From an uncultured virus (IMG/VR IMGVR_UViG_3300037991_003250) (lineage: Duplodnaviria > Heunggongvirae > Uroviricota > Caudoviricetes), in the IMG/VR virus record IMGVR_UViG_3300037991_003250: a stretch of 20,000 nucleotides of DNA. One strand, 5' to 3'. Below the pieces are notes generated by a model. That model did not search any database. It saw only the letters and a program-made list of their open reading frames with translations, and was not told the origin of the DNA. A program made the position numbers and the translations under genes. Positions 1,987 through 18,534 of this stretch are shown piece after piece. How positions within the stretch are numbered: the stretch's first letter is position 1; each line of letters begins with the position of its first letter.

Positions 1987-2013
1987 TGGCCTTCGGTCGC
2001 AAATAGTGATTTA

Positions 2014-2100: not shown

Positions 2101-2104
2101 TTAC

Positions 2105-2188: not shown

Positions 2189-2598
2189 CACTTACCGCCT
2201 TTCTTGCCGTTAGTAATTTGGAATGCCTCCATGTCGAGGGTGTGTTGCTTTTGCATTTTCTCCATTTCTAAGTCGTGCTTTAGTTTGTGTTCCTCAAGCA
2301 TTCTTGTGTGGTTCTTTTCTGCATCCGTAGCGGCTACATCAGAAGACAATTGGTCCGGCAAAACATTTATTTTTGCGGTTTCTTTACCCTTAAACAAATC
2401 AAGGACTGATGTAATGATAAGAAGTGCAGGACCGCCGAGAAGACCGATAACTGTTAATTGACTGTCGGATATTTCTCTTTGCTCAACGATACTAAAATAA
2501 GATGCAGTAGCCGCAATAACTACCCAAGCCATAACGACTCCCATACCGAAAGTTAGCATCAAAGCCTCGTTAGGGTTACCCATTTTTGTTCGACTCAT
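2188..2598 (-). CDS. Two-TM membrane protein with C-terminal coiled coil (holin-like topology), 136 aa
   Basis: Start revised to ATG 2598 (MSRTKMGNP) because AACC-TTGATAAA lies 30 nt upstream and the portal overlap disappears; two hydrophobic segments and a charged tail. Confidence 0.65.
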   Translation of the reverse strand: MSRTKMGNPNEALMLTFGMGVVMAWVVIAATASYFSIVEQREISDSQLTVIGLLGGPALLIITSVLDLFKGKETAKINVLPDQLSSDVAATDAEKNHTRMLEEHKLKHDLEMEKMQKQHTLDMEAFQITNGKKGGK

Positions 2599-2689
2599 GC
2601 GCTTCCAAGCCTTGAGTTGATTTATCAAGGTTTCAATTATCATTACCAAAATAACACCGTAAACAAAAGGAATTAAAGGTAATAATACA

Positions 2690-4084: not shown

Positions 4085-4375
4085 ATTTACAAGGTATGTT
4101 AGTTATCCTATAAAGGTTGGTTTTTATTTTTTTAATGATTTTGCGTTTTTTAGAAAGAATAAAACGCTTTACTGCGGATTTATTGTTTATTTATTTTATT
4201 TCTTCAAAGATATGTAAGGGAAATAGAGGGGGAACAAAAATACCTTTGAAGAAAAAAAAGAATAATGGTAATCGTTATACTGCGACTCGTTTATTTTTTC
4301 TGAGGCCGGAAAAAACATTGGAAATAATATGTGTTTATACTAACCTTTAATAAATACCCGAACATCGTTAGGTTC
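4085..4375. promoter_or_regulatory. AT-rich divergent promoter region for the portal and phosphoesterase/terminase operons
   Basis: AACC-TTTATAGG starts its TATA 30 nt before the portal ATG (minus strand); AACC-TTTAATAA starts 30 nt before ATG 4376 (plus strand). Confidence 0.7.
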
Positions 4376-7274: not shown

Positions 7275-7558
7275 GAACGAAATTCGGACCAAAGAAAAGA
7301 AAGGAATTAGCCAACGATGCAATCGTAAAATTGTTTAACGAGGGCTACTTTGACGAATGGCGATTGGCGCGTGAAATCTCCGAACAAATCACAAAAAATA
7401 TCCCCTCTCGATGGGGTAACTTTAGACCGGAAGCCGTTAGATTCGCTATGCTCAAAACAAAATTACCATTCGTAACACGCAATAAGCACCAAAGACTTGA
7501 ATGGCGAGCCGATGAGGGGAATGAGGGGATCGGCTCAAATACAGATGAGCAAAAGTGA
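7271..7558 (+). CDS. Small basic protein, possible winged-helix DNA-binding protein
   Basis: ATGA overlap with terL, GGTGA SD, K/R-rich 95 aa. Fold is a guess. Confidence 0.6.
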   Translation: MRTKFGPKKRKELANDAIVKLFNEGYFDEWRLAREISEQITKNIPSRWGNFRPEAVRFAMLKTKLPFVTRNKHQRLEWRADEGNEGIGSNTDEQK

Positions 7559-7829
7559 TTTAAAAAAATTTGTAAAAAATTTCGCGTGAGGGTAGCCATA
7601 CCACAACGCCGGACTGCGGCTGATCTTTGGCGGCAAATTGCAGACCATAGCGGCGAGGGCGTATGGTTAGGCATGAGATGCAGGGGTGACCCCCCTTGAG
7701 TCCATCCAGCGAGGCCCACAGGGTGATTTTAGGGGTATTCCCCGATTATCTCCGCCGAGCAAATGATCATTGAATTTTCAAATCTCAATCGAGCCTTTCG
7801 GCCAAATCAAGAATTTGATTTTGAAAGGT
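7559..7829. other. Non-coding segment between convergent operons; candidate genome terminus/packaging site
   Basis: AAAAAATTT tracts, then a GC-rich block with GGGGTGACCCC and GGGGTATTCCCC palindromes; adjacent to the terminase operon; marks the structural/early boundary. Confidence 0.4.
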
Positions 7830-7862
7830 GGGCTGGTGGCGGTTATCCGCCGCCACCAACCC
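7830..7862 (-). terminator. GC hairpin terminator downstream of the 7876 ORF
   Basis: GGGCTGGTGGCGG pairs with CCGCCACCAACCC, 13 nt beyond the stop. Confidence 0.55.
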
Positions 7863-7875
7863 GATTTTATTTCGT

Positions 7876-9012
7876 TCAGACTTTGAACATAGACCAGCGA
7901 CCGAGAACCGAAGTCGTCAATCGTGCCGTTTCGTAATTCTTGTTTGACTTATCCTTGAGGGTTGGGCTTAGTCCAATCCTCAAAGCATGAACCAAAGGTG
8001 CGACCCTTTGAACGTCAGCGATAGTCGCATCAACCACGCCTCTTTCAAAGCCAGCCTCAAACACCCAAAACAGGAAGGTGAACGGTTCTCCGTTTGGGGT
8101 GGTTGCGTTGCCGATATATCGAACCATTTTACCAGCAATTGACTTCACGGTTCGCGCACCGCTTGTCGGTGCGATATCAATATCTAATTCCGGCACTACT
8201 AACCCGTTGGTTCTCTCGTATGCGAGAACGACTCTCGCGCCGGTCTTCTTCTGAACCTGCACCTTGATGGGTTGGCGGTATTCTCCACCAATCAAGGCAT
8301 AGGTCTTGAGGGTCGAGAACATATTGCCGCCGACTTCTCTTGATGACTCGACAACATCGCCGCCACAGGTCGGGCAACCCATGAACGGAGATGAGCCGAG
8401 CGGTAGCCATGATTCGGTTCCGCTCGGAGTATAGCAGCCGACACCATCGGCCACCTTTTCGCATACATATCTCGCACCCTGCTTAACCTGCTTAACCAAT
8501 GAACGAGTTAATTTCTGTTCTTTGGTGTAGCCGTTGATGGCGTAAAGGTTGTTTTCTATCGCGTTCCCCCTGCTCAATTCAAACAGGACAGGCATTGACT
8601 CAAGAGGGCCAATGTTGCCTTTACCGGCCCACTTTACTAATTCCTTGATGCCGTCTGATTTAGCATTGTTTAGAACGACCTTGACCTTTCGGCCAATGGT
8701 TGAATGAAGAAGCCCCATTTGGCCCATTTCCACCACGTCAGCGAATGAAAACGGGGTCGGCCATACCGGAACATTTGCTTGAGGGCTAACTGCCTCAATT
8801 ATTGCATCAATGTGGCTCGTCTTCTTTGCCTTGTTCTTTGGTGCGGCTTCGACCCTCTCCGAGAGAGCCTTAACCTTCTTCATCGGAAGAAGGCTAAGAG
8901 CCGCAACGATAAGGGATTTTAGCCACCCTATCGTTTTGACCTCAGCCGCCGCATTAACGGCGGTTGAGGCGTTCGTTTGTTGTGCCTCGTAGGTAATCGC
9001 ATCGGATTCCAT
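7876..9012 (-). CDS. Hypothetical protein, 378 aa, with a CPTC Zn-ribbon-like motif
   Basis: Long ORF. Start revised from TTG 9096 to ATG 9012 because ATATATAC begins exactly 30 nt upstream. Confidence 0.75.
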   Translation of the reverse strand: MESDAITYEAQQTNASTAVNAAAEVKTIGWLKSLIVAALSLLPMKKVKALSERVEAAPKNKAKKTSHIDAIIEAVSPQANVPVWPTPFSFADVVEMGQMGLLHSTIGRKVKVVLNNAKSDGIKELVKWAGKGNIGPLESMPVLFELSRGNAIENNLYAINGYTKEQKLTRSLVKQVKQGARYVCEKVADGVGCYTPSGTESWLPLGSSPFMGCPTCGGDVVESSREVGGNMFSTLKTYALIGGEYRQPIKVQVQKKTGARVVLAYERTNGLVVPELDIDIAPTSGARTVKSIAGKMVRYIGNATTPNGEPFTFLFWVFEAGFERGVVDATIADVQRVAPLVHALRIGLSPTLKDKSNKNYETARLTTSVLGRWSMFKV

Positions 9013-9109
9013 GAGCCGAGCGACTTCATGCGTAGTATATATGGCGTTCGTTTTTCGTAACTCCTTTGGTTTGATTTCTTGAGGGTATGAATCCAACGAA
9101 ATTTTAGCC

Positions 9110-9405
9110 GTTACAATAATAATAATATTTCTCGGATTTTTATTAAATTGCTCGATCTGAGCGTTACAATAATTTTTCCCACAGAAGCGTTACAAAAAAG
9201 AAAATCGTTACAATAAATAGAGTTACAATAAAAAAAGTTACAATAAAAGAAATCCGTTACAAAAAAAGAAATCCGTTACAAAAAAGAGATTTGGGCGGGG
9301 CGTTACAATGATCAATGTAACGTGAGGCGGCGTTACAAAACGCCCCACCCGTTGAGTGTTACAATTAGTATATGTTACAATTAAGCGGGGTTGGATCGTT
9401 ACAAT
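9110..9405. repeat. GTTACAA cluster 1 (13 forward copies plus 1 inverted variant)
   Basis: GTTACAA at 9110, 9163, 9189, 9207, 9222, 9237, 9256, 9275, 9302, 9332, 9358, 9374, 9398; most followed by A-tracts. Confidence 0.95.
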
Positions 9406-9429
9406 TTTTTGGTTTCGGATTTTTCTTTT

Positions 9430-9852
9430 TCATTCTGACTTCACCCCGAAGTAGTTATCCCAATCTGTAAGGGATAGAGGCTGCCGACAGGCGGTGCAGT
9501 TAGGGCACTCCCATATTGGATATGATTCAAGGGTTTCTTCACCAGCAAGGCCGAAATAATCGGTTTCAACGGACATTTTGAAATCGTGCTGGTTGTCTTT
9601 GCATAGCACCGGCCCAATCTTTTCTGATGGCTCAAATTTAACTTCCCATGCGATTCCGTCTTCGTCTTCGTATGTGTAAGACTTGATGATTTTACACGCC
9701 TTCGTAAAACGGCGTGATTGGAATGCGGGATTAGGGAAGGCCATGATGAATTGATAGAATGCGTCATGTATTGCTTGTTGAATTGCGTAGTCCTTAGAGG
9801 GGTGATTAGCAACAATCTCAGCCATTTTGTTGAAGTCGCGGCGTGAGAGCAT
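9430..9852 (-). CDS. Hypothetical protein: N-terminal small phage domain (SRRDF..MAEI...NPAF...RF..AC) plus C-terminal Zn ribbon (CPNC)
   Basis: TGATG overlap and GGGGTGA SD support ATG 9852; the N-terminal pattern resembles a recurrent small phage protein family (from memory). Confidence 0.75.
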   Translation of the reverse strand: MLSRRDFNKMAEIVANHPSKDYAIQQAIHDAFYQFIMAFPNPAFQSRRFTKACKIIKSYTYEDEDGIAWEVKFEPSEKIGPVLCKDNQHDFKMSVETDYFGLAGEETLESYPIWECPNCTACRQPLSLTDWDNYFGVKSE

Positions 9853-10325
9853 CAATTCACCCCCCGACTCTCTAACTCGTCTTCAATGTCGCAGGAATAG
9901 CCTTGAACGCGCACCCCTTCCAATACGCAAGTTATCTCGGCTTGATGGTCGCAAGTGCCTTCAAACACGCAAGAACAGGTCTTGATTATCAATTGCTTGA
10001 TGTTATGATAGAGGGAAAGTGGGTCGCTATCTTCGCCAGCGTCTAAGTCGGAGTCCTTGCGGATATTTTCGCGGGTAGCCGCTCTCAAGGAATCAATTTC
10101 TTCGTCTTCTCCGTTCCAGCCGTCATCGTCTTTGATTTTGGTTGTGATAATTCGCCCGTTGCATCCTGCTTCGGGGCATATTTCCCCGAATGAATCGGGG
10201 CTATTGTTAAGGTCGGTATGAACGAAATATTCGGTCATACCCCACATTTCGTCACTCGGTGTGCGGTAGTATTCGCGGTGACCGTGTTTCGCATACATGA
10301 AGGGCGTTGTGTCTGATTTTTCCAT
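9852..10325 (-). CDS. Acidic Cys-containing hypothetical protein
   Basis: Start revised to ATG 10325 (MEKSDTT): TGATG overlap with the upstream small ORF and GGGGTGG SD. Confidence 0.75.
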   Translation of the reverse strand: MEKSDTTPFMYAKHGHREYYRTPSDEMWGMTEYFVHTDLNNSPDSFGEICPEAGCNGRIITTKIKDDDGWNGEDEEIDSLRAATRENIRKDSDLDAGEDSDPLSLYHNIKQLIIKTCSCVFEGTCDHQAEITCVLEGVRVQGYSCDIEDELESRGVN

Positions 10326-10438
10326 CAAACCACCCCCAAAACGCAGGTGCATAATGTTAGCACCGCATCTGTGCGACCAACGCACGAATTAAAGTCAATT
10401 GTTAGGGCCTCATCTATGGGGTTGCATCCGCAAGCCAT
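10325..10438 (-). CDS. Small Cys-rich peptide, 37 aa (MACGCNPIDEALTIDFNSCVGRTDAVLTLCTCVLGVV)
   Basis: ATTGATAAG TATA-like element 30 nt upstream of ATG; stop overlaps the next ATG; not in ORF track. Confidence 0.6.
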   Translation of the reverse strand: MACGCNPIDEALTIDFNSCVGRTDAVLTLCTCVLGVV

Positions 10439-10482
10439 GACCCGCCGTTAGCATTGTTGCTTATCAATACTATGCTAATTTA

Positions 10483-10852
10483 TTGTAACGGTTATTGTAA
10501 CGCAAATGATCATTTATTGTAACGCTCAAGCAGTAGCGAAGCGATCATGTTACAATAATTTCGTAACGCGGATCTAAGCCCGTTACAATAAAAAAAAGTT
10601 ACAAAAAAAGCGTTACAATAAAAAAAAGTTACAATAAAAAAGTTACAATAACTCAGACCGTTACAATAAAACCGGTCTATAATATATGTCCTACCGTTAC
10701 AATAAAAAAAATACCTAAAAAAACCGTTACAAAAAAGAGAAAAAAAGAGTTACAAAAAACAAGCCAGATCTGGCGTTACAATAGCACGACTAAGGGAGTT
10801 ACAATTAACCCCCTTAGCCGCTTGCGTTACAATCAATGATCTTCTGTTACAA
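10483..10852. repeat. GTTACAA cluster 2 (3 inverted then 14 forward copies)
   Basis: TTGTAAC at 10483, 10495, 10517; GTTACAA from 10549 to 10846; hairpin at 10786-10821. Confidence 0.95.
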
Positions 10853-10855
10853 TAT

Positions 10856-11281
10856 TCAGTCTAAAGTGGAAATGTATGAATGAACGAATTTGAATCTGTA
10901 TTTGTAAATCGTAGGCCAATCGCGCAAATCATAGTAATGTCTGCTGACTTTAGTTACAATCATTTTTGCTTCGTGTGGTATTGAAGAATATCTCAAATTT
11001 ATGATTTCTGGTGTCGTCTTTGATTTGCCCCCATCAGCATACATTCCTTCTTCACCTTTCAGTATGTTTTCAACATAACAGCAGATATCCGCCATCCTAT
11101 CCGCGTCATCATCGTCTAAGTCGTTCCAATCCATTTGGTCTTGCTGGTGAATTACCTTGAATCGGTTATTTATCCCATCCCATGATTTTGCGAGTAATCC
11201 TTCCTCGCTACGAGCGAGGATAACCCGCTCATACTCTCTATTGCCGTTCTTCTCCTTGATGATGCCCCAATGCAACCTCAT
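10856..11281 (-). CDS. Hypothetical protein, 141 aa
   Basis: Start revised to ATG 11281 (MRLHWGII): CACCGAAGC-ACTTATAT with TATA 30 nt upstream, and GACTAATT-ATG context identical to 13128-13138. Confidence 0.75.
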   Translation of the reverse strand: MRLHWGIIKEKNGNREYERVILARSEEGLLAKSWDGINNRFKVIHQQDQMDWNDLDDDDADRMADICCYVENILKGEEGMYADGGKSKTTPEIINLRYSSIPHEAKMIVTKVSRHYYDLRDWPTIYKYRFKFVHSYISTLD

Positions 11282-11324
11282 AATTAGTCGTAGGCGGGGT
11301 TGGATATAAGTGCTTCGGTGGTTT

Positions 11325-12160
11325 ATTGTAACGGCATATTTCGATCTGGATTTAGCAGTTACAATAATTTCGTAACGCATGATCGCTTTTTACCGTTACA
11401 ATAATTCAGATCAGGGGATCGGGAGTTACAATAACTCGGACAACCACCTATATAACCTTTTAGTTACAATAACTCGGACAGGGAGTCTATAAAGATTACC
11501 CGTTACAATAGCGATTCTCGCCGGTTTAAGTCTTTCGTTTGTAACACCCAATTTCATTTGTGGTAAACAGGCTCGCAGTATAGCGTTTTTATGTGGTGCG
11601 TTACAATAATTAACAAAATTGGCGATTTTGCGGCCCAAGTGGGGGGGTTGAGCGTCATTTTTTCGTTACAATAAATTTAAATCGATCTACGCAATTTTTC
11701 CCCAAAAAAACGCAAATTTCGCAGGGTTACAAAAAAATTGTAACTTTTTGATTTGTAACTATTTTACCCTTATTGTAACGTTTTATTGTAACATCCGTCT
11801 GTTACAATTATTATTGTAACAACGACTTTTTTTTGTAACTCCCCAAATCAAATAGTGCAAAAAAGAAAGCGAGTGTTGTAAATAAAACTGACTGAAAAAA
11901 GTAAAGCCGATGTGCTTAATGCACTAAGGGTTTTTATTGTAACTTAATGTGGGTGAATGCAAATTATTGTAACTATTATTTATATCTTCGATCCTGAGCG
12001 TTACAATAAAAAATCATGGTTTTTTCCTGCGTTACAATAAGCCGTTACAAAAAGAACCACCCGTTACAAAAATGTTCATGCGTTACAATATATAAATCTC
12101 GATCTAAACCGTTACAATATACCGAGAGAAATTTTCGCATAAAAGATCCGTTACAATAGG
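11325..12160. repeat. GTTACAA cluster 3 (about 26 copies, both orientations) at the divergence point of transcription; candidate origin/regulatory hub
   Basis: About 850 nt without a credible ORF, AT-rich, with alternating blocks of GTTACAA and TTGTAAC and several GATC. Confidence 0.9.
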
Positions 12161-12223
12161 GCTAAAATTAAGTGAGAATGCCGCGTAGTAAAGTATATAT
12201 AGTAGTTATTTCCTGCTCTAATT

Positions 12224-12745
12224 ATGAGAAAAGTCATACCTACGCGCATATGTCCTATATGTAGTGGAGAATTTGAGGCAAATACGAGAGGCCGACCACG
12301 CCGCTTCTGTTCTCCCGAATGCACCACCAAAGCAAAGAATACTAACTTTCAACGCTATGAAAGATTTGACCGGCCAAAGTCAAAGGGCGGTCGGGGAAAT
12401 AAAATCCTTCGACCGTGTGGGTGTCCTACTCGCCAACATAAACCCGATTGCGTTTTATCTCGCGCATTCCATGTGTATGAAAATTCCAATGCACACCATG
12501 ACGCAATATCAGCCAGCAACGCTTCAAAGATTGCTAAAGCAAACAGAAGACTTGAGGCTCAACGACTACGGGCGGCAAACAAGCGAGCCGCCGCAATCAA
12601 GAAAGCCGGAATGATTCCGGTTGATTCAATCAGTAAAAATCTCCCTATCTATATCGCGTGTGTGAAATGTAAGGGGCGAGGCCCGATAAGGGATTTCACC
12701 GCATGGAAGCAAGCAGACAGAACGGGAGTATGTAAGAATTGTTAG
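12224..12745 (+). CDS. Basic multi-Zn-finger protein, putative DNA-binding regulator
   Basis: CPIC...RRFCSPEC, CGC...HKPDC, CVKC...CKNC; K/R-rich; AAAG-TATATATA 30 nt before ATG. Confidence 0.8.
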   Translation: MRKVIPTRICPICSGEFEANTRGRPRRFCSPECTTKAKNTNFQRYERFDRPKSKGGRGNKILRPCGCPTRQHKPDCVLSRAFHVYENSNAHHDAISASNASKIAKANRRLEAQRLRAANKRAAAIKKAGMIPVDSISKNLPIYIACVKCKGRGPIRDFTAWKQADRTGVCKNC

Positions 12746-12756
12746 GAGATGAAAAG

Positions 12757-13089
12757 ATGGATAGACACATTGAGAAAATAGACGAATTGAACAATGAAGA
12801 ATTGAGGATGATTGCTCATGCGTTAGGCGACAAAGAATCCCGCATGAGAGAATTGGCTCACGATGAGAACCACTTGAATTTATGTGCGGTTCGGCAAATA
12901 AGATTAGGTAAAAAACAAGGCCGCGATTACGCTAAGGAATGCGAGGAACGAAATAATCATCGAACATGGTTCGTTGAAATGATGGAATTTTACAAGTCGG
13001 AACGCAAAAACCAATACCTACAAGACGCGAGAAAATACAGGAGATTATCAAATCTGTTTTTTGATGTAGTCTGTGAAAGAATAGAATAA
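12757..13089 (+). CDS. Hypothetical helical protein
   Basis: ORF; ATG 12757 follows a GGAGATG SD-like site. Confidence 0.7.
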   Translation: MDRHIEKIDELNNEELRMIAHALGDKESRMRELAHDENHLNLCAVRQIRLGKKQGRDYAKECEERNNHRTWFVEMMEFYKSERKNQYLQDARKYRRLSNLFFDVVCERIE

Positions 13090-13135
13090 AGATCACCGCT
13101 AAAAGATATAAATACTAAGATAAAGAGGACTAATT
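13088..13135 (+). promoter_or_regulatory. Conserved promoter cassette copy 1
   Basis: AAAGATCACCGCTAAAAG-ATATAAATA; GATC 13091 to ATG 13136 = 45 nt. Confidence 0.9.
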
Positions 13136-13471
13136 ATGGAAAGAAGCCACACCAACGCAACCGTCTTACACTTGATGAACAAGACCCAAAAATTCATGGG
13201 CATTCATTCAAATGAATGTGATGCGATAGCCGCCTTTCATATCATAACGGGCGAGCAATTCAATTATGTTTTCGGCCATACTTTCAAGGGTAGCCGAAAC
13301 CACCTTTCTTTTGATATGTGCATTGAGTCTATGATAAGAAACGATTTCCCGCGCCTAAGTGATGATGAAGTCAATGATATGTATTTCAAAGTCATGGAAG
13401 TGAGAGATAAATTGCGAGCGTTTAGAGAGAACCTATGCCTTGAGTATGGGAACGACAAGCAGGACTCGTAA
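13136..13471 (+). CDS. Hypothetical protein
   Basis: ORF directly behind promoter copy 1 and followed by a terminator. Confidence 0.8.
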   Translation: MERSHTNATVLHLMNKTQKFMGIHSNECDAIAAFHIITGEQFNYVFGHTFKGSRNHLSFDMCIESMIRNDFPRLSDDEVNDMYFKVMEVRDKLRAFRENLCLEYGNDKQDS

Positions 13472-13479
13472 TCGGATCA

Positions 13480-13670
13480 TTGTAACGGGTCGGTGGGGTT
13501 AGAACCCCATCGGCCCTAAATTTTTTTTGTCTATCAAAAATTATTGTAACGGATCTGGATCCGAAATTATTGTAACGCTTTGTATCGGCCAGCACGAAGC
13601 GTTACAAAAAAAGATGATCTGAAAAAGTTACAATAAAAAAAGAAAAAAGCGCGTTACAAAAAAGTTACAA
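13480..13670. repeat. GTTACAA cluster 4 (3 inverted, 4 forward)
   Basis: TTGTAAC at 13480, 13544, 13570; GTTACAA at 13601, 13627, 13653, 13664. Confidence 0.9.
13487..13528 (+). terminator. Hairpin plus T-run terminator, immediately preceded by TTGTAAC
   Basis: GGGTCGGTGGGGT pairs with ACCCCATCGGCCC, then TAAATTTTTTTT. Confidence 0.75.
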
Positions 13671-13691
13671 AAAAACAAATTCAATCTAAAA

Positions 13692-13739
13692 AAAGATCAC
13701 CGCTAAAAGGGTTAAATACTAAGAAGAAAACGGAATATC
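13692..13739 (+). promoter_or_regulatory. Conserved promoter cassette copy 2
   Basis: AAAGATCACCGCTAAAAG-GGTTAAATA; GATC 13695 to ATG 13740 = 45 nt. Confidence 0.9.
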
Positions 13740-13856
13740 ATGGTTGAAACATACACCAAAGAGGATTTACCCGCGACCGACCTTAACGAATGGGGCTACC
13801 CATCCGATGACTATATGCACATCGGCAACGGATTATTCGTAAAGAGGGGAGAGTAA
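13740..13856 (+). CDS. Small acidic peptide, 38 aa (MVETYTKEDLPATDLNEWGYPSDDYMHIGNGLFVKRGE)
   Basis: ATG at the conserved +45 position; not in ORF track. Confidence 0.7.
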   Translation: MVETYTKEDLPATDLNEWGYPSDDYMHIGNGLFVKRGE

Positions 13857-13861
13857 AAATT

Positions 13862-13996
13862 ATGAATCAGACTAAGATATTTTACACGGACATGACTAAA
13901 AAAACAGACGCTAAAACCTGCAAGATTCACCACCCAAAAATTAGCGGTGAAAACCGTTGCCGGATATGCAATAAAAGCAGGAGTGAGGAAGAATGA
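13862..13996 (+). CDS. Small Zn-finger-like peptide, 44 aa (CKIH...CRIC)
   Basis: GGGGAGAG SD-like site; ends in GTGAGGAAGAATGA coupling to the next ORF. Confidence 0.6.
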   Translation: MNQTKIFYTDMTKKTDAKTCKIHHPKISGENRCRICNKSRSEEE

Positions 13997-14166
13997 ATGA
14001 GGAAGAAAAAATAATCGTGGATGCTTTAAGGTATTATGCCGCAGGTTTGAAAATTGCTTATGATAGACAATTCACTTCACATCACCCCCCCAACAAACCA
14101 CGCTCAGAAAGAAATTTAATCAAGTCAAAAAAATGCCGAGATATTATTAAAAAAATGGAGAGTTAA
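13993..14166 (+). CDS. Small hypothetical protein, 57 aa (MNEEEKIIVDALRYYAAGLK...)
   Basis: ATGA overlap with the previous ORF; open to TAA at 14166. Confidence 0.6.
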   Translation: MNEEEKIIVDALRYYAAGLKIAYDRQFTSHHPPNKPRSERNLIKSKKCRDIIKKMES

Positions 14167-14168
14167 AA

Positions 14169-14369
14169 ATGAAAGTTAGATGTAGTAATTGCCTATTTGG
14201 ATTTCATGTCGCCGCGCCCGATAGAAGCGTTTGGAATAGAAACGGTAAATTTGATATTATCACCTGCTTTGAATGTGGCTTCGACAATTGGAGAAAGATT
14301 CCTCATTCAGACAAAAAGATTTCAAAGAGGCCCGACAAAATAACCACCGTTGTTTTGATTGACGATTGA
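14169..14369 (+). CDS. Zn-ribbon protein (CSNC...CFECG)
   Basis: Two CxxC pairs; GGAGAG SD-like site. Confidence 0.75.
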   Translation: MKVRCSNCLFGFHVAAPDRSVWNRNGKFDIITCFECGFDNWRKIPHSDKKISKRPDKITTVVLIDD

Positions 14370-14374
14370 TCTAT

Positions 14375-14422
14375 AAAGATCACCGCTAAAAGGGTTAAAT
14401 AGTAGTAATGAGAGGGTTAATT
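14375..14422 (+). promoter_or_regulatory. Conserved promoter cassette copy 3
   Basis: GATC 14378 to ATG 14423 = 45 nt. Confidence 0.9.
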
Positions 14423-14557
14423 ATGGGAGAAGAAGTCCATACAGAAGGAATGCTGACTAATGAATTATTTAGGCGAATGATGGAAGCCGAGAATTGGTGT
14501 TGTGGCCGATTCTGTGATGTTCCAAATTCCCCTTTATGCACCTGCGAGGATAAGTGA
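14423..14557 (+). CDS. Small Cys-rich peptide, 44 aa (MGEEVHTEG...WCCGRFCDVPNSPLCTCEDK)
   Basis: ATG at +45 of the promoter; stop overlaps the next gene (GTGA); not in ORF track. Confidence 0.7.
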   Translation: MGEEVHTEGMLTNELFRRMMEAENWCCGRFCDVPNSPLCTCEDK

Positions 14558-14949
14558 AAAAAATGTATATGAAGATAGATGAACAAGATTTTGTAAATGC
14601 CTTTGATAGAATGAATCGGTCTAATAATTTCTCGGTGATTGGTCGCCGTATGTTATTTGAATACTTGACCGGTGTTGAAGATGATGTGGGAGAAGAAATG
14701 GAGTTAGATGTAATCGCATTCTGTTCTTCTTTTACCGAGTATGAATCAATTGATGAATACTGCGACACCTATGATTCAAGCCCGCTCACACGCGACCGCT
14801 TGAACCATGCCGTGAAAGAAGAAGATATTGACTACCTAAGAGAAATCTTAGGTCATAAGCACCATGCCGTTATAACATGGTTTAATCACCCATTAGTGGG
14901 TTATGGTGGCTACCAAAGGGTTTTCAGAATGATTCTGAGTGATTTCTAA
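14554..14949 (+). CDS. Acidic phage protein, possible antirestriction/DNA-mimic type
   Basis: FVNAFDRMNRSNNFS...LFEYL...EMELDVIAFCSSFTEY resembles a widespread phage early-protein family; D/E-rich. Function inferred; exact start uncertain. Confidence 0.65.
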   Translation: MKKMYMKIDEQDFVNAFDRMNRSNNFSVIGRRMLFEYLTGVEDDVGEEMELDVIAFCSSFTEYESIDEYCDTYDSSPLTRDRLNHAVKEEDIDYLREILGHKHHAVITWFNHPLVGYGGYQRVFRMILSDF

Positions 14950-15182
14950 TGCTTTACACAAAAAGATACGATAGAAAAACTAAGACCTATCATTACAGAA
15001 AGCACGATGGCTCAAATGTCTTTTACGGATTTAGGGCCGGTTTTGGTGGTGATGAAGAATGGACTTTTTGCTCGGCATTAGATAATTCGGCTTTTGGTAT
15101 GCCTTCATTTGAGCAGGGAGTCTATACAATGATGGGGTATAAAGATTTCATGGTTTGGATGGAAAACAGAAAGAGGCCATGA
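14949..15182 (+). CDS. Hypothetical protein
   Basis: TAATG overlap; followed by a terminator. Confidence 0.7.
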   Translation: MLYTKRYDRKTKTYHYRKHDGSNVFYGFRAGFGGDEEWTFCSALDNSAFGMPSFEQGVYTMMGYKDFMVWMENRKRP

Positions 15183-15189
15183 TTGGTTA

Positions 15190-15353
15190 TTGTAACGCCT
15201 CGCCGTCTAAATGGCGGCGGGGCTAAATTTTTTTTTCGGCTAAAAAATTATTGTAACGCTTCTGGATCGATCCCGCGCCAGCGTTACAATAAAAATATAT
15301 CATAACTCGTTACAAAAAAAGAAATCCAAAAAAGAGTTACAAAAAAGTTACAA
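15190..15353. repeat. GTTACAA cluster 5 (2 inverted, 4 forward)
   Basis: TTGTAAC at 15190, 15251; GTTACAA at 15283, 15309, 15336, 15347. Confidence 0.9.
15197..15236 (+). terminator. Hairpin plus T-run terminator, immediately preceded by TTGTAAC
   Basis: GCCTCGCCGTC pairs with GGCGGCGGGGC, then TAAATTTTTTTTT. Confidence 0.75.
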
Positions 15354-15362
15354 AAAAAGAAA

Positions 15363-15410
15363 AAAGATCACCGCTAAAAGATATAAATAATATGACGATG
15401 AGGATTTATT
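15363..15410 (+). promoter_or_regulatory. Conserved promoter cassette copy 4
   Basis: GATC 15366 to ATG 15411 = 45 nt. Confidence 0.9.
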
Positions 15411-15692
15411 ATGTCGAAAGAAGACTACTTCCTATGCACATGGAATGGAAATGAAATAATAGAATTACACACGAAAGAAAGCCTTTGGGAACAATACAAA
15501 GAAACGGGTTTGTTTGAAGATGATGATTGGTTTTATGAAACGGAAAATATAGAAAACGTAAGCCTAACGGATTTGATGAGCCTATGTATCTATAATGAAG
15601 ATAAAGATACGGTTCATTACAACGATAATATGACTATCATGTATGTCGGAAATGATTTTCAATTCTCCAAAGGTTATTTTAAAATCAAGTGA
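15411..15692 (+). CDS. Very acidic hypothetical protein
   Basis: ORF at +45 of the promoter; D/E-rich. Confidence 0.8.
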   Translation: MSKEDYFLCTWNGNEIIELHTKESLWEQYKETGLFEDDDWFYETENIENVSLTDLMSLCIYNEDKDTVHYNDNMTIMYVGNDFQFSKGYFKIK

Positions 15693-15693
15693 T

Positions 15694-15741
15694 AAAGATC
15701 ACCGCTAAAAGGGTTAAATAGAAGAAAGGAGAGGACTATAT
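15694..15741 (+). promoter_or_regulatory. Conserved promoter cassette copy 5
   Basis: GATC 15697 to ATG 15742 = 45 nt. Confidence 0.9.
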
Positions 15742-16179
15742 ATGGCGAGAAACAGTTATGGCCGACATGGAGAAGTATGCGAAAGAACGGATGGTAAAGT
15801 GAGGATGACTATAAGGCAAGACCCTGTTTTCCTTGACTTTGAAAAAGCGGTGGCGTTGGTGTTTTACGGTTGCGTTCCCGTTAGGAATAATAATTTCTAT
15901 CACGAATTAAAATCCATTGGGAAGCAAGCATTCACGAAAAATTATTGGGTGGAAAGACTCAAGCATTATTGTTCCTTTCTCAATGTTGATGAAGAAGAAG
16001 CGGCTACCTTTGATTATTGGTGCAATTCCCGATATTCCGCACATTCGGAAATCGAACAGAATTTAGCGATTTGGTCGGATATAGAAGACCATTTGAGAAT
16101 GATATTCCCCGCATGGGAAAATGAACCATCACTTACAGAACATCAAGATTGGGAAGACATAAGGGGTGAGGAAGAATGA
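15742..16179 (+). CDS. Hypothetical protein
   Basis: ORF at +45 of the promoter; ends GGTGAGGAAGAATGA. Confidence 0.8.
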   Translation: MARNSYGRHGEVCERTDGKVRMTIRQDPVFLDFEKAVALVFYGCVPVRNNNFYHELKSIGKQAFTKNYWVERLKHYCSFLNVDEEEAATFDYWCNSRYSAHSEIEQNLAIWSDIEDHLRMIFPAWENEPSLTEHQDWEDIRGEEE

Positions 16180-16604
16180 GAAAAATGCCGACAAACCTAA
16201 GCCACAAAGAAGCCACTTTTCTTTATTGGTGTGCTTTGGATAAATTAGAAAATGAAAGCCGCGACCATGCGGTTTTCATATTCGGTTCAGAAGAAAACGG
16301 CGGGCATGATTCCACCGAAATGATTACACAAAAAGAGATTCGGTCGCTTGTAAATAATTTGGCGGAAGAAGTCAAATGGCGACAAGATATGAAAATGATT
16401 CAAAAGGTGGTGTGTGCTGATTGCGGAACGGTTTGTCCGGCCAGCATGGAAACCTTTGGGTCGAAATTGTCTATGCACGATGGAATTTGGGCTGATTGCC
16501 CCGAATGCGGCTTGACCGGCTACGATGAAATCGTGGTGGATTGGGATCGATGGGCTAAAAATAATCTCACACATGAAGCGAGAGAAAGGTTTGTGAACCC
16601 ATAA
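16176..16604 (+). CDS. Hypothetical protein with Zn ribbon (CADCG...CPECG)
   Basis: ATGA coupling and two CxxCG motifs. Confidence 0.8.
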   Translation: MRKMPTNLSHKEATFLYWCALDKLENESRDHAVFIFGSEENGGHDSTEMITQKEIRSLVNNLAEEVKWRQDMKMIQKVVCADCGTVCPASMETFGSKLSMHDGIWADCPECGLTGYDEIVVDWDRWAKNNLTHEARERFVNP

Positions 16605-16650
16605 AGATCACCGCAAAAAGACTTATTAACTATGAATGAGAGGACTATAT
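16603..16650 (+). promoter_or_regulatory. Conserved promoter cassette copy 6 (variant GATCACCGCAAAAAG-ACTTATTAA)
   Basis: GATC 16606 to ATG 16651 = 45 nt. Confidence 0.85.
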
Positions 16651-16917
16651 ATGAGCAGGAGAAGAACCACCAGCGCAAATAAGATTGATGAGAAAATCCG
16701 CACGATAGATGATATCGTGAGCGGGTTGGATGAACGAACCGATGTAGTAAATCTTGAGATTTTACGAATCTTTGATGAAAAACTGAGGATGCTTATTGAG
16801 GATATGCGGCACGAAATCCAAACGAAAGAAACCGCATTAGAATTGTTGAGATTCAAGGATAGAGTCGAGAGAATCGGTATGGATAAAATAATGGAAATAA
16901 TTGAACAAAACAGGTGA
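16651..16917 (+). CDS. Coiled-coil hypothetical protein
   Basis: Start revised from 16636 to 16651 by promoter spacing; heptad-like pattern. Confidence 0.75.
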   Translation: MSRRRTTSANKIDEKIRTIDDIVSGLDERTDVVNLEILRIFDEKLRMLIEDMRHEIQTKETALELLRFKDRVERIGMDKIMEIIEQNR

Positions 16918-16922
16918 AAAAA

Positions 16923-17903
16923 ATGACTAAGAAAAACAAGACTATGCCCGCCTATGCTATGATGGGGAAGCAAGCGGTGGGCTCAACGACTGACGAAGTG
17001 CTAACGAATGCCGGAATGAATTTTTCGATAGGTATAGAACCAATTTATACCAAATCGGGAAAAATGATTCGGGGGGGTAATTTCCGCCGAGTATTCCGTA
17101 AAGATAACGACCATGATTTAGGGGTGGTAAAAAAGAATTATCAGATTTTACAACCTATCGAATGGGCCAACATAGCGAACACATTGAGTGGTGGCTTAGA
17201 GGCCGAATGGGATCGAATCGGTATGATAAACAAGGGAGAAAAAATGTTCGGGTCATTTACTTTGCCCGAACAAATCCAAATAGGCAACGGCGACAAATTC
17301 GCAACGAATATGTATCTATGGACTTCTAACGATGGTTCGGGTGCAGTAAATTGTTTGCCGACCTTAAGACGGCTGGCTTGTGCTAATCAATCACCGATGG
17401 CTTTCAGAACGCTCGCTACTATGGGCTTGAGAGCGAAGGATTTGTCTATCCCTCATTCGTCTATAATGAGAGGCAGGATTGATAATTTACCGCAAAAATT
17501 GAACATGATTAACACCATGCAACAGGAATGGTGCGCCATGACCGACCAATTGTTAGAGGTCGAAATGGAATTTGACGATAGGGTGCAATTCTATATTGAT
17601 GTGATGGGTTGGACTCAAAAAGACGAATTGAAGGATAAGGTCGAAAATCCTCATGGGCTGGCTACAAGAGGCCGCAACCAATTAGAGGCCATGCTTGAGT
17701 TAGAAGGTTCTCGCACAAACACAGGAAATGGTATGCGTGATACTCAATATCAAGCATACAATGTTCTGACGGAATTTATAGACCACCATAGCATTCTAAG
17801 CGGCGGCAAGCCCAAAGAATCAACGATGAATAATACCGTATTCGGCGCGGGGGCGAGGAAGAAGGATAAGGCGTGGGCGTTGCTCATGCAATCCCACCTA
17901 TGA
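16923..17903 (+). CDS. DUF932 / phage-plasmid-like protein
   Basis: LGVVKKNYQILQP, G.INKGEKMF, TSNDGSGAV...RLACANQ, TQYQAYNVLTEFIDH, FGAGARKK match the family as recalled; ATG 16923 follows AGGTGA SD. Confidence 0.8.
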   Translation: MTKKNKTMPAYAMMGKQAVGSTTDEVLTNAGMNFSIGIEPIYTKSGKMIRGGNFRRVFRKDNDHDLGVVKKNYQILQPIEWANIANTLSGGLEAEWDRIGMINKGEKMFGSFTLPEQIQIGNGDKFATNMYLWTSNDGSGAVNCLPTLRRLACANQSPMAFRTLATMGLRAKDLSIPHSSIMRGRIDNLPQKLNMINTMQQEWCAMTDQLLEVEMEFDDRVQFYIDVMGWTQKDELKDKVENPHGLATRGRNQLEAMLELEGSRTNTGNGMRDTQYQAYNVLTEFIDHHSILSGGKPKESTMNNTVFGAGARKKDKAWALLMQSHL

Positions 17904-17913
17904 GTATTGTAAC

Positions 17914-17941
17914 GGGGCTACGGGATCGATCTCGTAGCCCC
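17914..17941 (+). terminator. Hairpin preceded by TTGTAAC, with GATCGATC at the apex and no T-run
   Basis: GGGGCTACGGGAT pairs with ATCTCGTAGCCCC; abuts promoter copy 7. Confidence 0.6.
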
Positions 17942-17942
17942 A

Positions 17943-17990
17943 AAACATCACCGCTAAAAGAGTTAAATAGAAGAAAATCGAGGATTAAAT
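17943..17990 (+). promoter_or_regulatory. Conserved promoter cassette copy 7 (CATCACCGCTAAAAG-AGTTAAATA)
   Basis: CATC 17946 to ATG 17991 = 45 nt. Confidence 0.85.
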
Positions 17991-18006
17991 ATGAGAGGGA
18001 ATAAAC

Positions 18007-18534
18007 ATGACTGAATCATTTATTGGAAGACTGACTGACGAAATATATAGCGACACATTAGGCCGCTCTTACGCGCTGGCCTATTGGATGAACGCCACCA
18101 ATGGCGACTTCGCAAGAGAAGCATATGGTGAAAGCATACACCACGAATGGGGGAAGGTGGATTTAGAAGGCACTTGTTCTGATGATGCCGACACAATTTT
18201 TACGACCAATATGGGCGAGTATATTGTTCTTCGCGGAGATGAAGCATATCAAAAGGCTACGGAATACATTGAGGACACCCTATATGCGTTTAATAGCCAT
18301 TTCTTAGCGGGTTATACGGGCGTTGATGAATCGGTGTTTGAGCAATTATCTCAACAATATGAAAGTGCAAATCCGGCGGTTCGTTCATTGATAGAAGCCA
18401 ACGGTGGTTTAGAGGGCTTTGTTGGTGAGGCGATTGCCGCCGATGGTTTAGGGCATTTCATATCGTTTTATGACGGCGAAGAACATCAAATGATTATCGG
18501 TAGTAAAGCATGGAGTATCTTTAGGGTGAATTGA
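18007..18534 (+). CDS. Highly acidic phage protein
   Basis: 175 aa, very few K/R; FVGEAIAADGLGHFISFYDGEE resembles a recurrent phage early-protein motif. Confidence 0.8.
   Translation: MTESFIGRLTDEIYSDTLGRSYALAYWMNATNGDFAREAYGESIHHEWGKVDLEGTCSDDADTIFTTNMGEYIVLRGDEAYQKATEYIEDTLYAFNSHFLAGYTGVDESVFEQLSQQYESANPAVRSLIEANGGLEGFVGEAIAADGLGHFISFYDGEEHQMIIGSKAWSIFRVN

What the first reader, a model, noticed from the sequence alone, without database searches (positions are those of the whole stretch)
9050..17945. About 70 oriented GTTACAA boxes bracket the early transcription units
Seen: GTTACAA/TTGTAAC (often CGTTACAAWA plus an A-tract) occurs about 70 times in six intergenic sites. I saw none in 1-9100 and only one inside a CDS (10953). 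The copies nearest a gene follow a polarity rule on both strands. On the mRNA-like strand they read TTGTAAC right after a stop (13480, 15190, 17907; minus-strand 9398, 10846) and GTTACAA approaching a promoter (13601-13664, 15283-15347, 12000-12150; minus-strand 10483-10517, 11325, variant 9057). Each unit is therefore enclosed in inverted boxes. Inference: a high-density, directional protein-binding system. Candidates are activation or looping of early units, staged DNA injection/translocation signals, titration of a host factor, or cassette recombination sites (AAC after stop and GTT before the next gene loosely parallels integron attC polarity). I know of no description of this in archaeal viruses.
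Basis: partly seen in the sequence, partly recalled or inferred. Interest (0 to 1): 0.9.

Follow-up and report, generated by a model that had tools for sequence, protein, structure and literature searches.

The report
Oriented repeat boxes framing viral early genes
An uncultured marine tailed virus, probably of archaea, packs about 70 copies of a short oriented DNA word into the gaps between its early genes, next to promoters and terminators; related viruses do the same with their own word, so these are most likely docking sites for a virus-made regulator.

Summary
Observation confirmed. GTTACAA occurs 71 times (2.5 expected), all between 9110 and 17913: 70 in six non-coding sites, 1 in a gene. 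Independent metagenome contigs from three studies carry the arrays. In the 92%-identical relative, box bases are better conserved than spacers (381/392 vs 1171/1285).

The trait is family-wide. At least 13 relatives carry such arrays beside the terminase gene, each with its own word around a shared TACA(A/T)A-like core. A complete 66.9 kb relative has 43 of 44 copies in 3.8 kb.

The polarity rule generalises. The box after a stop codon is anti-directional in 19 of 22 cases. The box nearest a promoter is co-directional in 22 of 30 and often about 62 nt before the ATG.

Best reading (0.45): binding sites of a lineage-specific, virus-encoded protein that bound the early transcription units. The conserved Zn-ribbon protein at 12224 is the best candidate, but binding is not shown. 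Integron-like cassette exchange is not supported. An archaeal host is plausible but unproven. I rate it a new variant of the multi-copy operator or boundary-element kind.

The parts
9110..9404 (+). Array 1: 13 GTTACAA boxes, all on +. It lies between the stop of the leftward gene 9430-9855 and the start of the leftward gene 7876-9012.
9055..9061 (-). Variant box GTTACGA on the minus strand, 49 nt before the ATG at 9012 and co-directional with that gene.
   Evidence: read directly
10483..10852 (.). Array 2: 3 boxes on - (10483, 10495, 10517), then 14 on + (10549-10846). The switch pair 10517/10549 is 32 bp apart with GATC between.
10953..10959 (+). The single box inside a coding region (gene 10856-11281, minus strand).
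11326..12156 (.). Array 3: 26 boxes of mixed orientation in the roughly 940-bp divergent control region between leftward gene A (ATG 11281) and the rightward Zn-ribbon gene (ATG 12224). It includes the palindromic pairs 11726/11738 and 11801/11814 and the outward-facing pairs 11326/11358 and 11967/12000.
13480..13670 (.). Array 4: 3 boxes on -, flanking a terminator-like hairpin, then 4 on + leading to the promoter at 13696.
15190..15353 (.). Array 5: 2 boxes on -, flanking a terminator-like hairpin, then 4 on + leading to the promoter at 15367. It is paralogous to array 4, with box spacings 26, 27, 11 against 26, 26, 11.
17907..17913 (-). Single box 3 nt after the stop of the DUF932 gene. It is followed by the hairpin 17914-17942 and the promoter at 17947.
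13487..13530 (+). GC-rich hairpin, then TAAA and a run of 8 T. Terminator-like.
15197..15240 (+). GC-rich hairpin, then TAAA and a run of 9 T. Terminator-like.
13092..13114 (+). Class-2 promoter-like 23-mer ATCACCGCTAAAAGNNTWAAATA. The ATG follows 21 nt after it. No boxes upstream.
13696..13718 (+). Class-2 promoter-like 23-mer, preceded by 4 co-directional boxes.
14379..14401 (+). Class-2 promoter-like 23-mer. No boxes upstream.
15367..15389 (+). Class-2 promoter-like 23-mer, preceded by 4 co-directional boxes. The nearest box starts 64 nt before the ATG.
15698..15720 (+). Class-2 promoter-like 23-mer. No boxes upstream.
17947..17969 (+). Class-2 promoter-like 23-mer. A 7-codon mini-ORF starts 21 nt after it, and the real gene starts at 18007.
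12194..12201 (+). TATATATA, 22 nt before the ATG at 12224, with no Shine-Dalgarno sequence. This is the class-1 promoter of the Zn-ribbon gene. The nearest box, at 12150, starts 74 nt before the ATG.
11304..11309 (-). TTATAT on the minus strand, 22 nt before the ATG at 11281 of gene A. There is no Shine-Dalgarno sequence. The box at 11326 lies upstream and is co-directional.
9036..9042 (-). ATATATA on the minus strand, 23 nt before the ATG at 9012 of the 378-aa gene. There is no Shine-Dalgarno sequence.
12224..12745 (+). 173-aa multi-zinc-motif protein: an N-terminal FCS/CGNR-like ribbon, a CGCPxRQH knuckle, a long helix and a C-terminal CxxC...CxxC ribbon. It is the first rightward early gene and the candidate box binder.
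7876..9012 (-). 378-aa hypervariable protein, the last gene of the leftward early operon. A positionally equivalent but very divergent protein follows the terminase gene in most relatives. It is the second candidate.

Best explanation
The boxes are cis-regulatory binding sites for a sequence-specific DNA-binding protein encoded in the same exchangeable early-gene module. Bound boxes mark the two ends of each early transcription unit. Copies upstream of a promoter read GTTACAA toward the gene and act on the promoter, either as an upstream activating site or as a block to divergent and read-in transcription. Copies after a stop codon read the other way and sit on and around the terminator, where they help stop or insulate transcription. 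Every polymerase leaving a unit therefore meets the same face of the box.

Shown: the location, polarity, conservation, lineage-specific variation and promoter-relative position of the boxes. Inferred: that a protein binds them, that it is virus-encoded (best candidate the Zn-ribbon protein 12224-12745), and the direction of its effect.
For: 1. Restriction and density. 70 of 71 boxes lie in about 2.4 kb of non-coding DNA in the early region. In the complete relative G003, 43 of 44 variant boxes lie in 3.8 of 66.9 kb. In G002 there is no box in the 14.7 kb beyond the early region.

2. Selection. Against the 92% relative, box bases are identical at 381 of 392 positions and other intergenic bases at 1171 of 1285.

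3. A family-wide trait with lineage-specific words. Examples are CGTTACAATAA, AGTTACATAAT, GGTTACAAAAAC, ACCCTACAAAATA, TGCCTACAAAACA, CTACTACAAAT and TATCTACAAAT. The word switches between viruses with 95-96% identical terminase, together with a swap of the whole early module.

4. Operator-like forms in relatives. Perfect palindromic pairs recur: 12 pairs at spacing 6 in L044, 9 at spacing 12 in L033 and 7 at spacing 10 in L022.

5. Fixed place in promoters. The box start lies 60-64 nt before an ORF ATG in 27 of 193 box-ORF pairs, against 7.4 expected if spacing were uniform. Catalogued promoters show box, then TATATATA, then 21-22 nt, then ATG. This occurs 5 times in L076 (2 with a variant box), 3 times in L078 and 2 times in L048, and L066 has a palindrome 17 nt before the TATA at 3 promoters.

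6. Polarity. The nearest box to a promoter is co-directional in 22 of 30 cases. The first box after a stop is anti-directional in 19 of 22, or 14 of 17 outside the window.

7. Candidate binder. The Zn-ribbon family is the only early protein found across box classes, in 19 loci. A source calls a cluster member a 'predicted nucleic acid-binding Zn ribbon protein'. Its identity tracks the box class: 85-88% between viruses with the same box, 59% where the flanks differ and 37% where the core differs. Its own gene carries a box promoter in the window, L076 and L048.
Against: - No binding was shown, and no tool here can test protein-DNA binding.
- The Zn-ribbon protein has no recognised DNA-binding family and no fold match at E <= 0.001.
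- Its co-variation with the box equals what simple linkage within one module would give. The hypervariable protein after the terminase gene co-varies as well.
- Three of six class-2 promoters work, by sequence, without any box, so boxes are not an obligatory promoter part.
- Copy number is very high: 13-14 tandem boxes behind two leftward genes here, and about 95 boxes over 9.5 kb in G005. This far exceeds what known operators need.
- In L066 the promoter-proximal box is anti-directional at 4 of 6 promoters.
- Box spacing is irregular, from 11 to over 60 bp.
- The first after-stop boxes in the rightward units lack a T-tract, which weakens a simple pause-and-release terminator model.
Confidence: 0.45

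Rival explanations
1. The boxes work without a dedicated binder. Read one way they give T-runs, which are termination signals for an archaeal polymerase. Read the other way they give A-tracts that bend DNA or exclude chromatin proteins. Their TA(C/T)A(A/T)(A/T)A core with a specific 5' flank acts as a weak TATA/BRE-like pad for the host's basal factors, either concentrating or soaking up TBP and TFB.
For: The core shared across lineages is TATA-like. In the L011 lineage the repeated box is GGGTATATAAAC, arranged in tandem. Anti-directional boxes follow stop codons in 19 of 22 cases, often within 0-3 nt. An A-rich tail follows about half of the boxes. The real promoters of this virus are TATA-like with constant spacing to the ATG.
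Against: The best-conserved part, GTTAC, is not A/T-rich, and it differs between viruses with near-identical structural genes. That pattern points to a specific reader. T-runs in several lineages are only 3-5 long. The first after-stop boxes in the window have no T-run and rely on a separate hairpin plus T8-9. Tandem units of 12-16 bp are too short for separate initiation complexes.
Confidence: 0.15
2. The arrays recruit or titrate a host DNA-binding protein, such as a global regulator or chromatin protein, to take over the cell or to protect viral DNA.
For: The boxes are numerous and take up much genome space: 71 boxes here and about 95 in 9.5 kb of G005. They lie in the region expected to act first after entry.
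Against: Viruses with 95-96% identical terminase, and therefore probably similar hosts, use different boxes. Boxes hold fixed positions in promoters. No host genome was available in which to look for the word.
Confidence: 0.13
3. The boxes are iterons of one or more replication origins, or centromere-like partition sites. The roughly 940-bp array 3 would be the origin.
For: Array 3 is a large non-coding region with boxes in both orientations, palindromic pairs and divergent genes. Short repeats in direct and inverted order are typical of origins and of parC/parS-type sites (established knowledge).
Against: There are six separate sites, each tied to a gene boundary. Box positions relative to promoters and stop codons are conserved in relatives. 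No Rep, Orc1/Cdc6, ParA or ParM family was found in the 27 window ORFs or in the 28 G003 proteins scanned, out of 81 called. The archaeal ORB/mini-ORB core (TTCC...GAA, as in TTCCAGTGGAA) is unlike the box (passages read in PMC1904270).
Confidence: 0.12
4. The boxes are signals read during DNA entry or packaging. They would be pause or handover sites for staged injection, or a polar guide for a translocase.
For: The arrays start within 2 kb of the terminase gene. In every lineage most boxes share one strand relative to that gene: 52 of 71 here, 35 of 43 in L003, 56 of 67 in L022, 75 of 89 in L066 and 23 of 24 in L014.
Against: Genome ends are unknown, and the contig ends of G003 and G004 differ. 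Local orientation flips at each gene boundary, which a single translocation direction does not explain.
Confidence: 0.07
5. The boxes are recombination sites for exchanging gene cassettes, with integron attC-like polarity.
For: Each unit is flanked by inverted boxes. Small early genes come and go between close relatives.
Against: None of the breakpoints seen lies in a box. The 77-aa gene 14949-15182 and the 145-aa gene 15742-16179 are missing from G002, with ends at stop, start or promoter junctions. The variant that skips 16632-17943 ends just before the promoter at 17947. No integrase or recombinase family was found in the 27 window ORFs. The units have their own promoters.
Confidence: 0.03

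Closest known systems
Stoperators of Cluster A mycobacteriophages (L5 gp71-type immunity repressor). Abstracts seen in search listing: PMC9283540, PMC6550527.
   Same: A short asymmetric site, present in many copies in non-coding gaps, whose orientation matters for transcription. A phage-encoded protein reads it and also stops elongation. The site consensus and the protein change together between related phages.
   Different: Stoperators are single sites spread over the whole genome in one orientation relative to transcription, a few dozen per genome (recalled, not from a call). Here 13-26 boxes stand in tandem. They are confined to about 9 kb, and both orientations are used in a bracket pattern. 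No HTH repressor or integrase was found. The host is probably archaeal.
Intergenic repeats of halovirus HF2 that carry promoters (PMC8707807; abstract and passages read).
   Same: An archaeal tailed virus with conserved repeated intergenic elements at the heads of transcription units. The TATA box begins at -26 and the BRE lies at -33 to -37. Some repeats are active in both directions. The six 23-mers in the window (ATCACCGCTAAAAGNNTWAAATA, with the ATG 21 nt later) look like this kind of element.
   Different: The HF2 repeats are the promoters themselves, 58 or 29 bp long and about nine copies. The GTTACAA boxes are 7-12 bp and about 70 copies. They lie beside promoters and terminators, and three of six class-2 promoters lack them.
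Sal-box/TTF-I (Reb1) terminator arrays of eukaryotic rRNA genes (established knowledge, not from a call).
   Same: Tandem copies of an oriented protein-binding box lie downstream of a transcription unit, with a further copy upstream of its promoter. Function depends on orientation.
   Different: This is a eukaryotic Pol I system. All its boxes share one orientation, whereas here the upstream and downstream sets are inverted. The comparison concerns how it works only; there is no homology.
Iterons and centromere repeats of plasmids and phages (R1 parC, pSM19035 omega heptads, P1 C1 operators; established knowledge, not from a call).
   Same: Short repeats, direct and inverted, occur in clusters near promoters. 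They are read by a small element-encoded protein and often serve as operator and structural site at once.
   Different: Those have one or two clusters per replicon beside rep or par genes. Here there are six clusters, each at a gene boundary, and no rep or par family was detected.

Membership tests
Stoperator/immunity-repressor system (Cluster A mycobacteriophages) | Asymmetric 13-14 bp site in many copies in non-coding gaps. | tested here: met
   There are 71 copies, and the asymmetric consensus sCGTTACAAWAA covers about 11-12 bp. 70 copies are non-coding.
Stoperator/immunity-repressor system (Cluster A mycobacteriophages) | Sites dispersed genome-wide in a single orientation relative to transcription. 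| tested here: not met
   The boxes are confined to 9110-17913, and to 3.8 of 66.9 kb in G003. Both orientations are used, anti after stops and co before promoters.
Stoperator/immunity-repressor system (Cluster A mycobacteriophages) | HTH immunity repressor and temperate life cycle (integrase). | tested here: not met
   No repressor or integrase family was found in the 27 window ORFs or in the 28 G003 proteins scanned out of 81 called. The remaining ORFs were not scanned.
Integron attC / gene cassettes | Integron integrase nearby, promoterless cassettes, and exchange at the GTT of the site. | tested here: not met
   No integrase family was found. The units carry promoters. None of the breakpoints seen falls in a box.
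Archaeal origin recognition boxes (ORB / mini-ORB) | Consensus with the conserved TTCC and GAA motifs (TTCCAGTGGAA-like), in inverted copies around an A/T-rich unwinding element and next to orc1/cdc6. | tested here: not met
   The box sequence is unlike this consensus (passages read in PMC1904270). No Cdc6/Orc1 family was found among the proteins scanned. Inverted pairs do exist.
Plasmid/phage iterons and partition centromeres | Repeat cluster adjacent to a rep or par operon whose product binds it. | tested here: inconclusive
   Repeat clusters are present, but no Rep, ParA, ParM or ParB family was detected. Many early ORFs have no family at all.
Promoter-carrying intergenic repeats (HF2 type) | The repeat contains a BRE/TATA element with the transcript start about 26 nt downstream. 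| tested here: inconclusive
   The six 23-mers have a TATA-like end and an ATG 21 nt later. The GTTACAA boxes show no constant downstream start. No RNA data exist.

The most novel reading that the evidence does not exclude
The arrays may be a virus-borne system of polar boundary elements, the first of its kind in a virus of prokaryotes. Each early gene unit would be fenced on both sides by tandem, inward-facing boxes. A lineage-specific viral zinc protein would turn these into one-way stops for RNA polymerase, in the manner of the Sal-box/TTF-I arrays of rRNA genes. Because the boxes carry a TATA/BRE-like core, they would at the same time draw the host's TBP and TFB onto viral DNA. Different viral lineages would have re-coded the box and its reader together, which would give mutually insulated early programmes during co-infection.
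Probability: 0.13. Interest if true: 0.85.

Novelty: new variant of a known kind. Interest (0 to 1): 0.62.

Why it matters
Regulation of early genes in uncultured marine viruses, above all archaeal ones, is almost unknown. This case offers a whole virus family in which 5-10% of the genome goes to a simple, countable cis-code. The code is a short oriented word tied to promoters and stop codons, and it has been rewritten many times between close relatives. That makes a natural experiment in the co-evolution of a DNA word and its reader.

It also supplies a ready set of specificity swaps for testing. One example is GTTACAATAA against GTTACATAAT in viruses with 96% identical terminase. In addition, two promoter classes can be read from sequence alone. 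If the boxes prove to be polar terminators or insulators, they would be compact, orthogonal parts for controlling transcription units.

Tried and rejected
- RNA evidence: no RNA holder was listed for 9000-18100, so transcript ends could not be mapped.
- Whole genome: none is held. The nearest record, G001, is the same 20 kb.
- Cultured relatives: none. There was no DNA match in the phage collection, and terminase matches were at most 26% identical.
- Host assignment. A first scan of genome contigs found nothing. A second found two 56-57% relatives in MAGs labelled Rhodobiaceae and Opitutales. The 21.5-kb stretch fetched from the 61-kb one (10 kb each side of its terminase gene) has no array.
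- tRNAs and RNA families: no tRNA in G002 or G003 and no Rfam family in the window.
- Cluster names gave nothing useful.
- The 378-aa protein. Only close homologues exist. The AlphaFold model is unusable, with pLDDT 34. It has no Pfam family, nor do the 17 positional equivalents.
- The Zn-ribbon protein. The model has pLDDT 65.6 and no PDB fold match at E <= 0.001. The Atlas gave only unnamed viral clusters. There are 42 representative relatives, and 14 of them scanned had no Pfam family.
- Widening the box-reader comparison failed. A narrower one returned 8 loci, 7 of them already held.
- Sigma-70-type promoters are not enriched: 22 found against 26.1 in shuffles.
- Box spacing shows no clean helical period.
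- The ORB reading was rejected on sequence.
- The integron reading was rejected on breakpoints.
- Earlier notes of this scan: none.
- Print searches found no description of such arrays. In the magrovirus paper the words repeat, intergenic and promoter occur 0 times.

Full report
THE OBSERVATION

GTTACAA or its complement occurs 71 times in the 20-kb window. Dinucleotide shuffles give 2.54 on average and never more than 8. All copies lie between 9110 and 17913.

They fall in six non-coding sites: 13, 17, 26, 7, 6 and 1 copies. One further copy lies inside the gene 10856-11281.

Aligning the 71 sites extends the word to about sCGTTACAAWAA. C precedes it in 42 of 71. T (52) or A (19) follows, then A in 59 and A in 59. 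An A-rich tail follows in roughly half.

The arrays are not an assembly artefact. Contigs from runs of three studies cover them, including one 7437-base contig that spans 9000-13463 with 13 differences.

Against a 92%-identical relative (G002), box bases are identical at 381 of 392 positions. Other intergenic bases are identical at 1171 of 1285. The boxes are therefore under stronger constraint than their spacers.

WHAT THE WINDOW IS

The window is a tailed virus. It encodes a portal (2690-4084, minus strand), an Mre11/SbcD-like exonuclease (4331-5785), a large terminase (5778-7274) and a DUF932 protein (16914-17903).

The window is nearly the whole of its 20-kb record. It has no cultured relative: there was no DNA match and terminase identity was at most 26%.

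IMG/VR holds many relatives (211 matched stretches, of which the best 80 loci were kept). These include two complete or near-complete genomes of 66.9 and 64.7 kb with 96% identical terminase.

That complete genome (G003) encodes a family B DNA polymerase, a 232-aa ERCC4 plus helix-hairpin-helix nuclease, a PD-(D/E)XK nuclease, a methylase, tail proteins and a collagen-like fibre.

The array region lies between the packaging genes and the long replication operon. Genes diverge from the largest array.

HOST DOMAIN

Evidence for this:
- Six copies of a 23-mer, ATCACCGCTAAAAGNNTWAAATA, all have an ATG exactly 21 nt after the TAAATA.
- Three unrelated promoters, those of the genes starting at 12224, 11281 and 9012, have TATATA-type boxes 22-23 nt before the ATG and no Shine-Dalgarno sequence.
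- In non-homologous early regions of relatives, TATA-like words also end 21-23 nt before ORF starts. The counts are window 7 of 15, L066 6 of 14 and L022 2 of 4.
- This is the geometry of archaeal leaderless promoters. In halovirus HF2 the TATA box begins at -26 from the start site (passages read in PMC8707807).
- The polymerase's best full-length matches are haloarchaeal tailed viruses at 23-27% identity.
- The nuclease's nearest solved relatives are the Pyrococcus Hef nuclease and topoisomerase V.

Evidence against:
- The six 23-mer promoters carry GAGGA-like words at Shine-Dalgarno distance.
- Two 56-57% terminase relatives sit in MAGs labelled Rhodobiaceae and Opitutales.
- The exonuclease resembles bacteriophage proteins.

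I put an archaeal host at about two in three.

THE TRAIT IS FAMILY-WIDE AND THE WORD CHANGES

The commonest 7- and 8-mers of the related loci are box-like words in the same place, just past the terminase gene. They include:
- AGTTACATAAT (L003, L004, L006, L007)
- GGTTACAAAAAC (L047, L056, L066)
- TGTTACAAAAC (L033)
- AGGTTACAATTTT (L035)
- ACTACATAAC (L022)
- ACCCTACAAAATA (L048, L062, L063, L068, L069)
- TGCCTACAAAACA (L053, L070, L076)
- CTACTACAAAT (L044, L045, L061)
- TATCTACAAAT (L079, L080)
- GGACAAAAA (L065)
- AAATCCAAA (L014, L016, L034)

Most share a TACA(A/T)A-like core.

In the complete genome G003, 43 of 44 matches lie in 47947-51765. In G005, 95 of 100 lie in 4500-13971.

Homology between the window and the 96% relatives stops at window 7598. 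The whole early module, arrays included, is replaced. A more distant relative (57% terminase, L207) has no array in the 21.5 kb around its terminase gene.

POLARITY

In the window every site has the form: leftward-pointing boxes, then a centre, then rightward-pointing boxes. The outermost box therefore points at the adjacent gene at 10 of 12 site edges (my count).

Five centres are inverted pairs 31-33 bp apart, with GATC in four of the five spacers.

Across lineages, the first box within 40 nt after a stop codon is anti-directional in 19 of 22 cases, often 0-3 nt after the stop. The box nearest a catalogued promoter is co-directional in 22 of 30.

The exception is L066. There a palindromic pair sits about 17 nt upstream of the TATA at three promoters, and the proximal half reads the other way.

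Independently of local genes, most boxes share one strand relative to the terminase gene in every lineage. Examples are 52 of 71 here, 75 of 89 in L066 and 23 of 24 in L014.

PLACE IN PROMOTERS

Two promoter classes can be read.

Class 1 consists of a lineage-specific box, a TATATATA-type box and 21-22 nt to a start codon with no Shine-Dalgarno sequence. The box starts 60-64 nt before the ATG in 27 of 193 box-ORF pairs, against 7.4 expected if spacing were uniform. This is seen 5 times in L076 (2 with a variant box), 3 times in L078 and 2 times in L048. In the window the proximal box starts 49-51 nt (genes at 11281 and 9012) or 74 nt (gene at 12224) before the ATG.

Class 2 is conserved across lineages as ATCAC-N11-TTAAATA, in the window and in L076. 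In the window only two of its six copies have boxes upstream, four each. Those two are the ones that follow a terminator-like hairpin plus T-run.

The boxes are thus tied to unit boundaries. They are not an obligatory promoter part.

WHO READS THE BOXES

Viruses with 95-96% identical terminase use different words.

Only one early protein is found across box classes: the 173-aa protein at 12224-12745, found in 19 loci. It has several zinc motifs and a weak CGNR/FCS-type zinc-finger match. In the model, a long helix and the C-terminal ribbon are confident (pLDDT 65.6 overall). No fold match was found.

Its family is small: 42 representative clusters among 1.84 billion proteins. The 14 relatives scanned had no Pfam domain.

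Its identity tracks the box class:
- 85-88% between viruses with the same box
- 59% where only the flanks differ
- 37% for the window against L003

Its own gene has a box promoter in three lineages.

The hypervariable protein next to the terminase gene co-varies as well. It is 378 aa here, and positional equivalents of 250-470 aa fall into 11 BLAST clusters that match the box classes. It diverges even between viruses with the same box (56-79%), and its model failed.

Both co-variations equal what linkage alone would give.

MECHANISM

I commit to protein-bound boundary elements of the early transcription units.

By the symmetry of the arrangement, a polymerase leaving a unit in either direction meets the A/T-rich side first and then TTGTAAC. 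A polymerase entering meets the other face.

Upstream copies would stimulate or shield the promoter, including against divergent initiation from a symmetric TATA box. Downstream copies would reinforce termination around the hairpin and T-run.

Shown: place, polarity, conservation, co-variation and promoter spacing.

Three things remain unexplained. The very high copy number is one: 13-14 tandem boxes behind two leftward genes, and about 95 in G005. The global strand bias is another. The third is the GATC sites at the centres.

RIVALS

- A binder-free reading, in which T-runs act as archaeal terminators, A-tracts shape the DNA and the core acts as a TATA/BRE-like pad. It is kept alive by the TATA-like core and by the L011 lineage, whose tandem box is GGGTATATAAAC.
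- Host-factor titration.
- Origin or centromere repeats.
- Entry signals.
- Integron-like exchange. This fares worst. The genes 14949-15182 and 15742-16179 are absent from G002, with ends at gene or promoter junctions. A population variant that skips 16632-17943 ends just before the promoter at 17947. No recombinase family was found.

COMPARISON AND NOVELTY

The nearest known systems are:
- stoperators of Cluster A mycobacteriophages, as seen in the abstracts shown in the listing;
- the promoter-carrying repeats of halovirus HF2;
- rDNA Sal-box terminator arrays (function only);
- iterons and centromere repeats.

None combines tandem arrays, confinement to the early region, the bracket polarity and lineage-specific re-coding.

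My searches found no description of this. I rate it a new variant of a known kind, namely multi-copy oriented operator or boundary sites, in a virus family that has not been studied.

Noticed in passing
window 13092-13114, 13696-13718, 14379-14401, 15367-15389, 15698-15720, 17947-17969: There are six copies of the 23-mer ATCACCGCTAAAAGNNTWAAATA, each with an ATG exactly 21 nt later. A homologous ATCAC-N11-TTAAATA element heads genes in the distant relative L076. This looks like a second, family-conserved promoter class. Mosaic breakpoints between strains fall at its edges.
   Followed up: partly
window, whole; GATC sites listed: GATC is under-represented overall: 47 against 81 expected, and only 10 in 1-9000. 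About 30 of the 47 lie in the non-coding arrays and promoters. Several sit in the spacer of the inverted box pairs, and one starts five of the six 23-mers. The virus family encodes DNA methylases.
   Followed up: no
window 7560-7875: This is a GC-rich non-coding stretch between the terminase operon and the 378-aa gene. It folds more stably than shuffles on both strands (z -3.5 and -3.2) and ends in a strong two-way hairpin at about 7828-7860. Homology to the 96% relatives stops inside it, at 7598. It could hold the packaging site or a structured RNA. No Rfam family matched.
   Followed up: partly
window 4331-5785: A 484-aa Mre11/SbcD-like phosphoesterase (phrog_704, E 1.9e-71) overlaps the start of the large terminase gene, where a small terminase is usually found. 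Its first 160 residues or so match nothing.
   Followed up: no
window 7876-9012 and the positional equivalents in L003, L022, L035, L044, L048, L053, L066, L079 and others: A 250-470 aa protein of no known family follows the terminase gene in most relatives. It is only 23-30% identical between viruses whose terminases are 95-96% identical. This is far faster divergence than its neighbours show.
   Followed up: partly
window 14949-15182, 15742-16179, 16632-17943: Whole small genes are present or absent between the window, the 92% relative G002 and population variants in two metagenome runs. The ends lie at stop, start or promoter junctions.
   Followed up: partly
L011 3070-7530 (also L008, L010, L012, L013): This lineage (71% terminase identity) has 18 copies of GGGTATATAAAC, mostly on one strand. 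In one stretch they stand in tandem with GGGGTTAAAAC every 25-50 bp, and no ORF follows at a constant distance. These are arrays of TATA-like boxes.
   Followed up: partly
window 17991-18014: A 7-codon mini-ORF starts at the position where the other five 23-mer promoters have their gene start. It overlaps the real start at 18007.
   Followed up: no
L207 (61-kb contig) and L206: Relatives with 56-57% terminase identity are binned in MAGs labelled Opitutales and Rhodobiaceae. The 61-kb contig is of whole-virus size, which suggests a binned viral genome rather than a prophage.
   Followed up: no
window 11426-11638 (-) and 12016-12159 (+): Two short ORFs (70 and 47 aa) lie inside array 3 and contain boxes. 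They are matched only in the 92% relative, at about the DNA identity level, so they are probably not genes.
   Followed up: no
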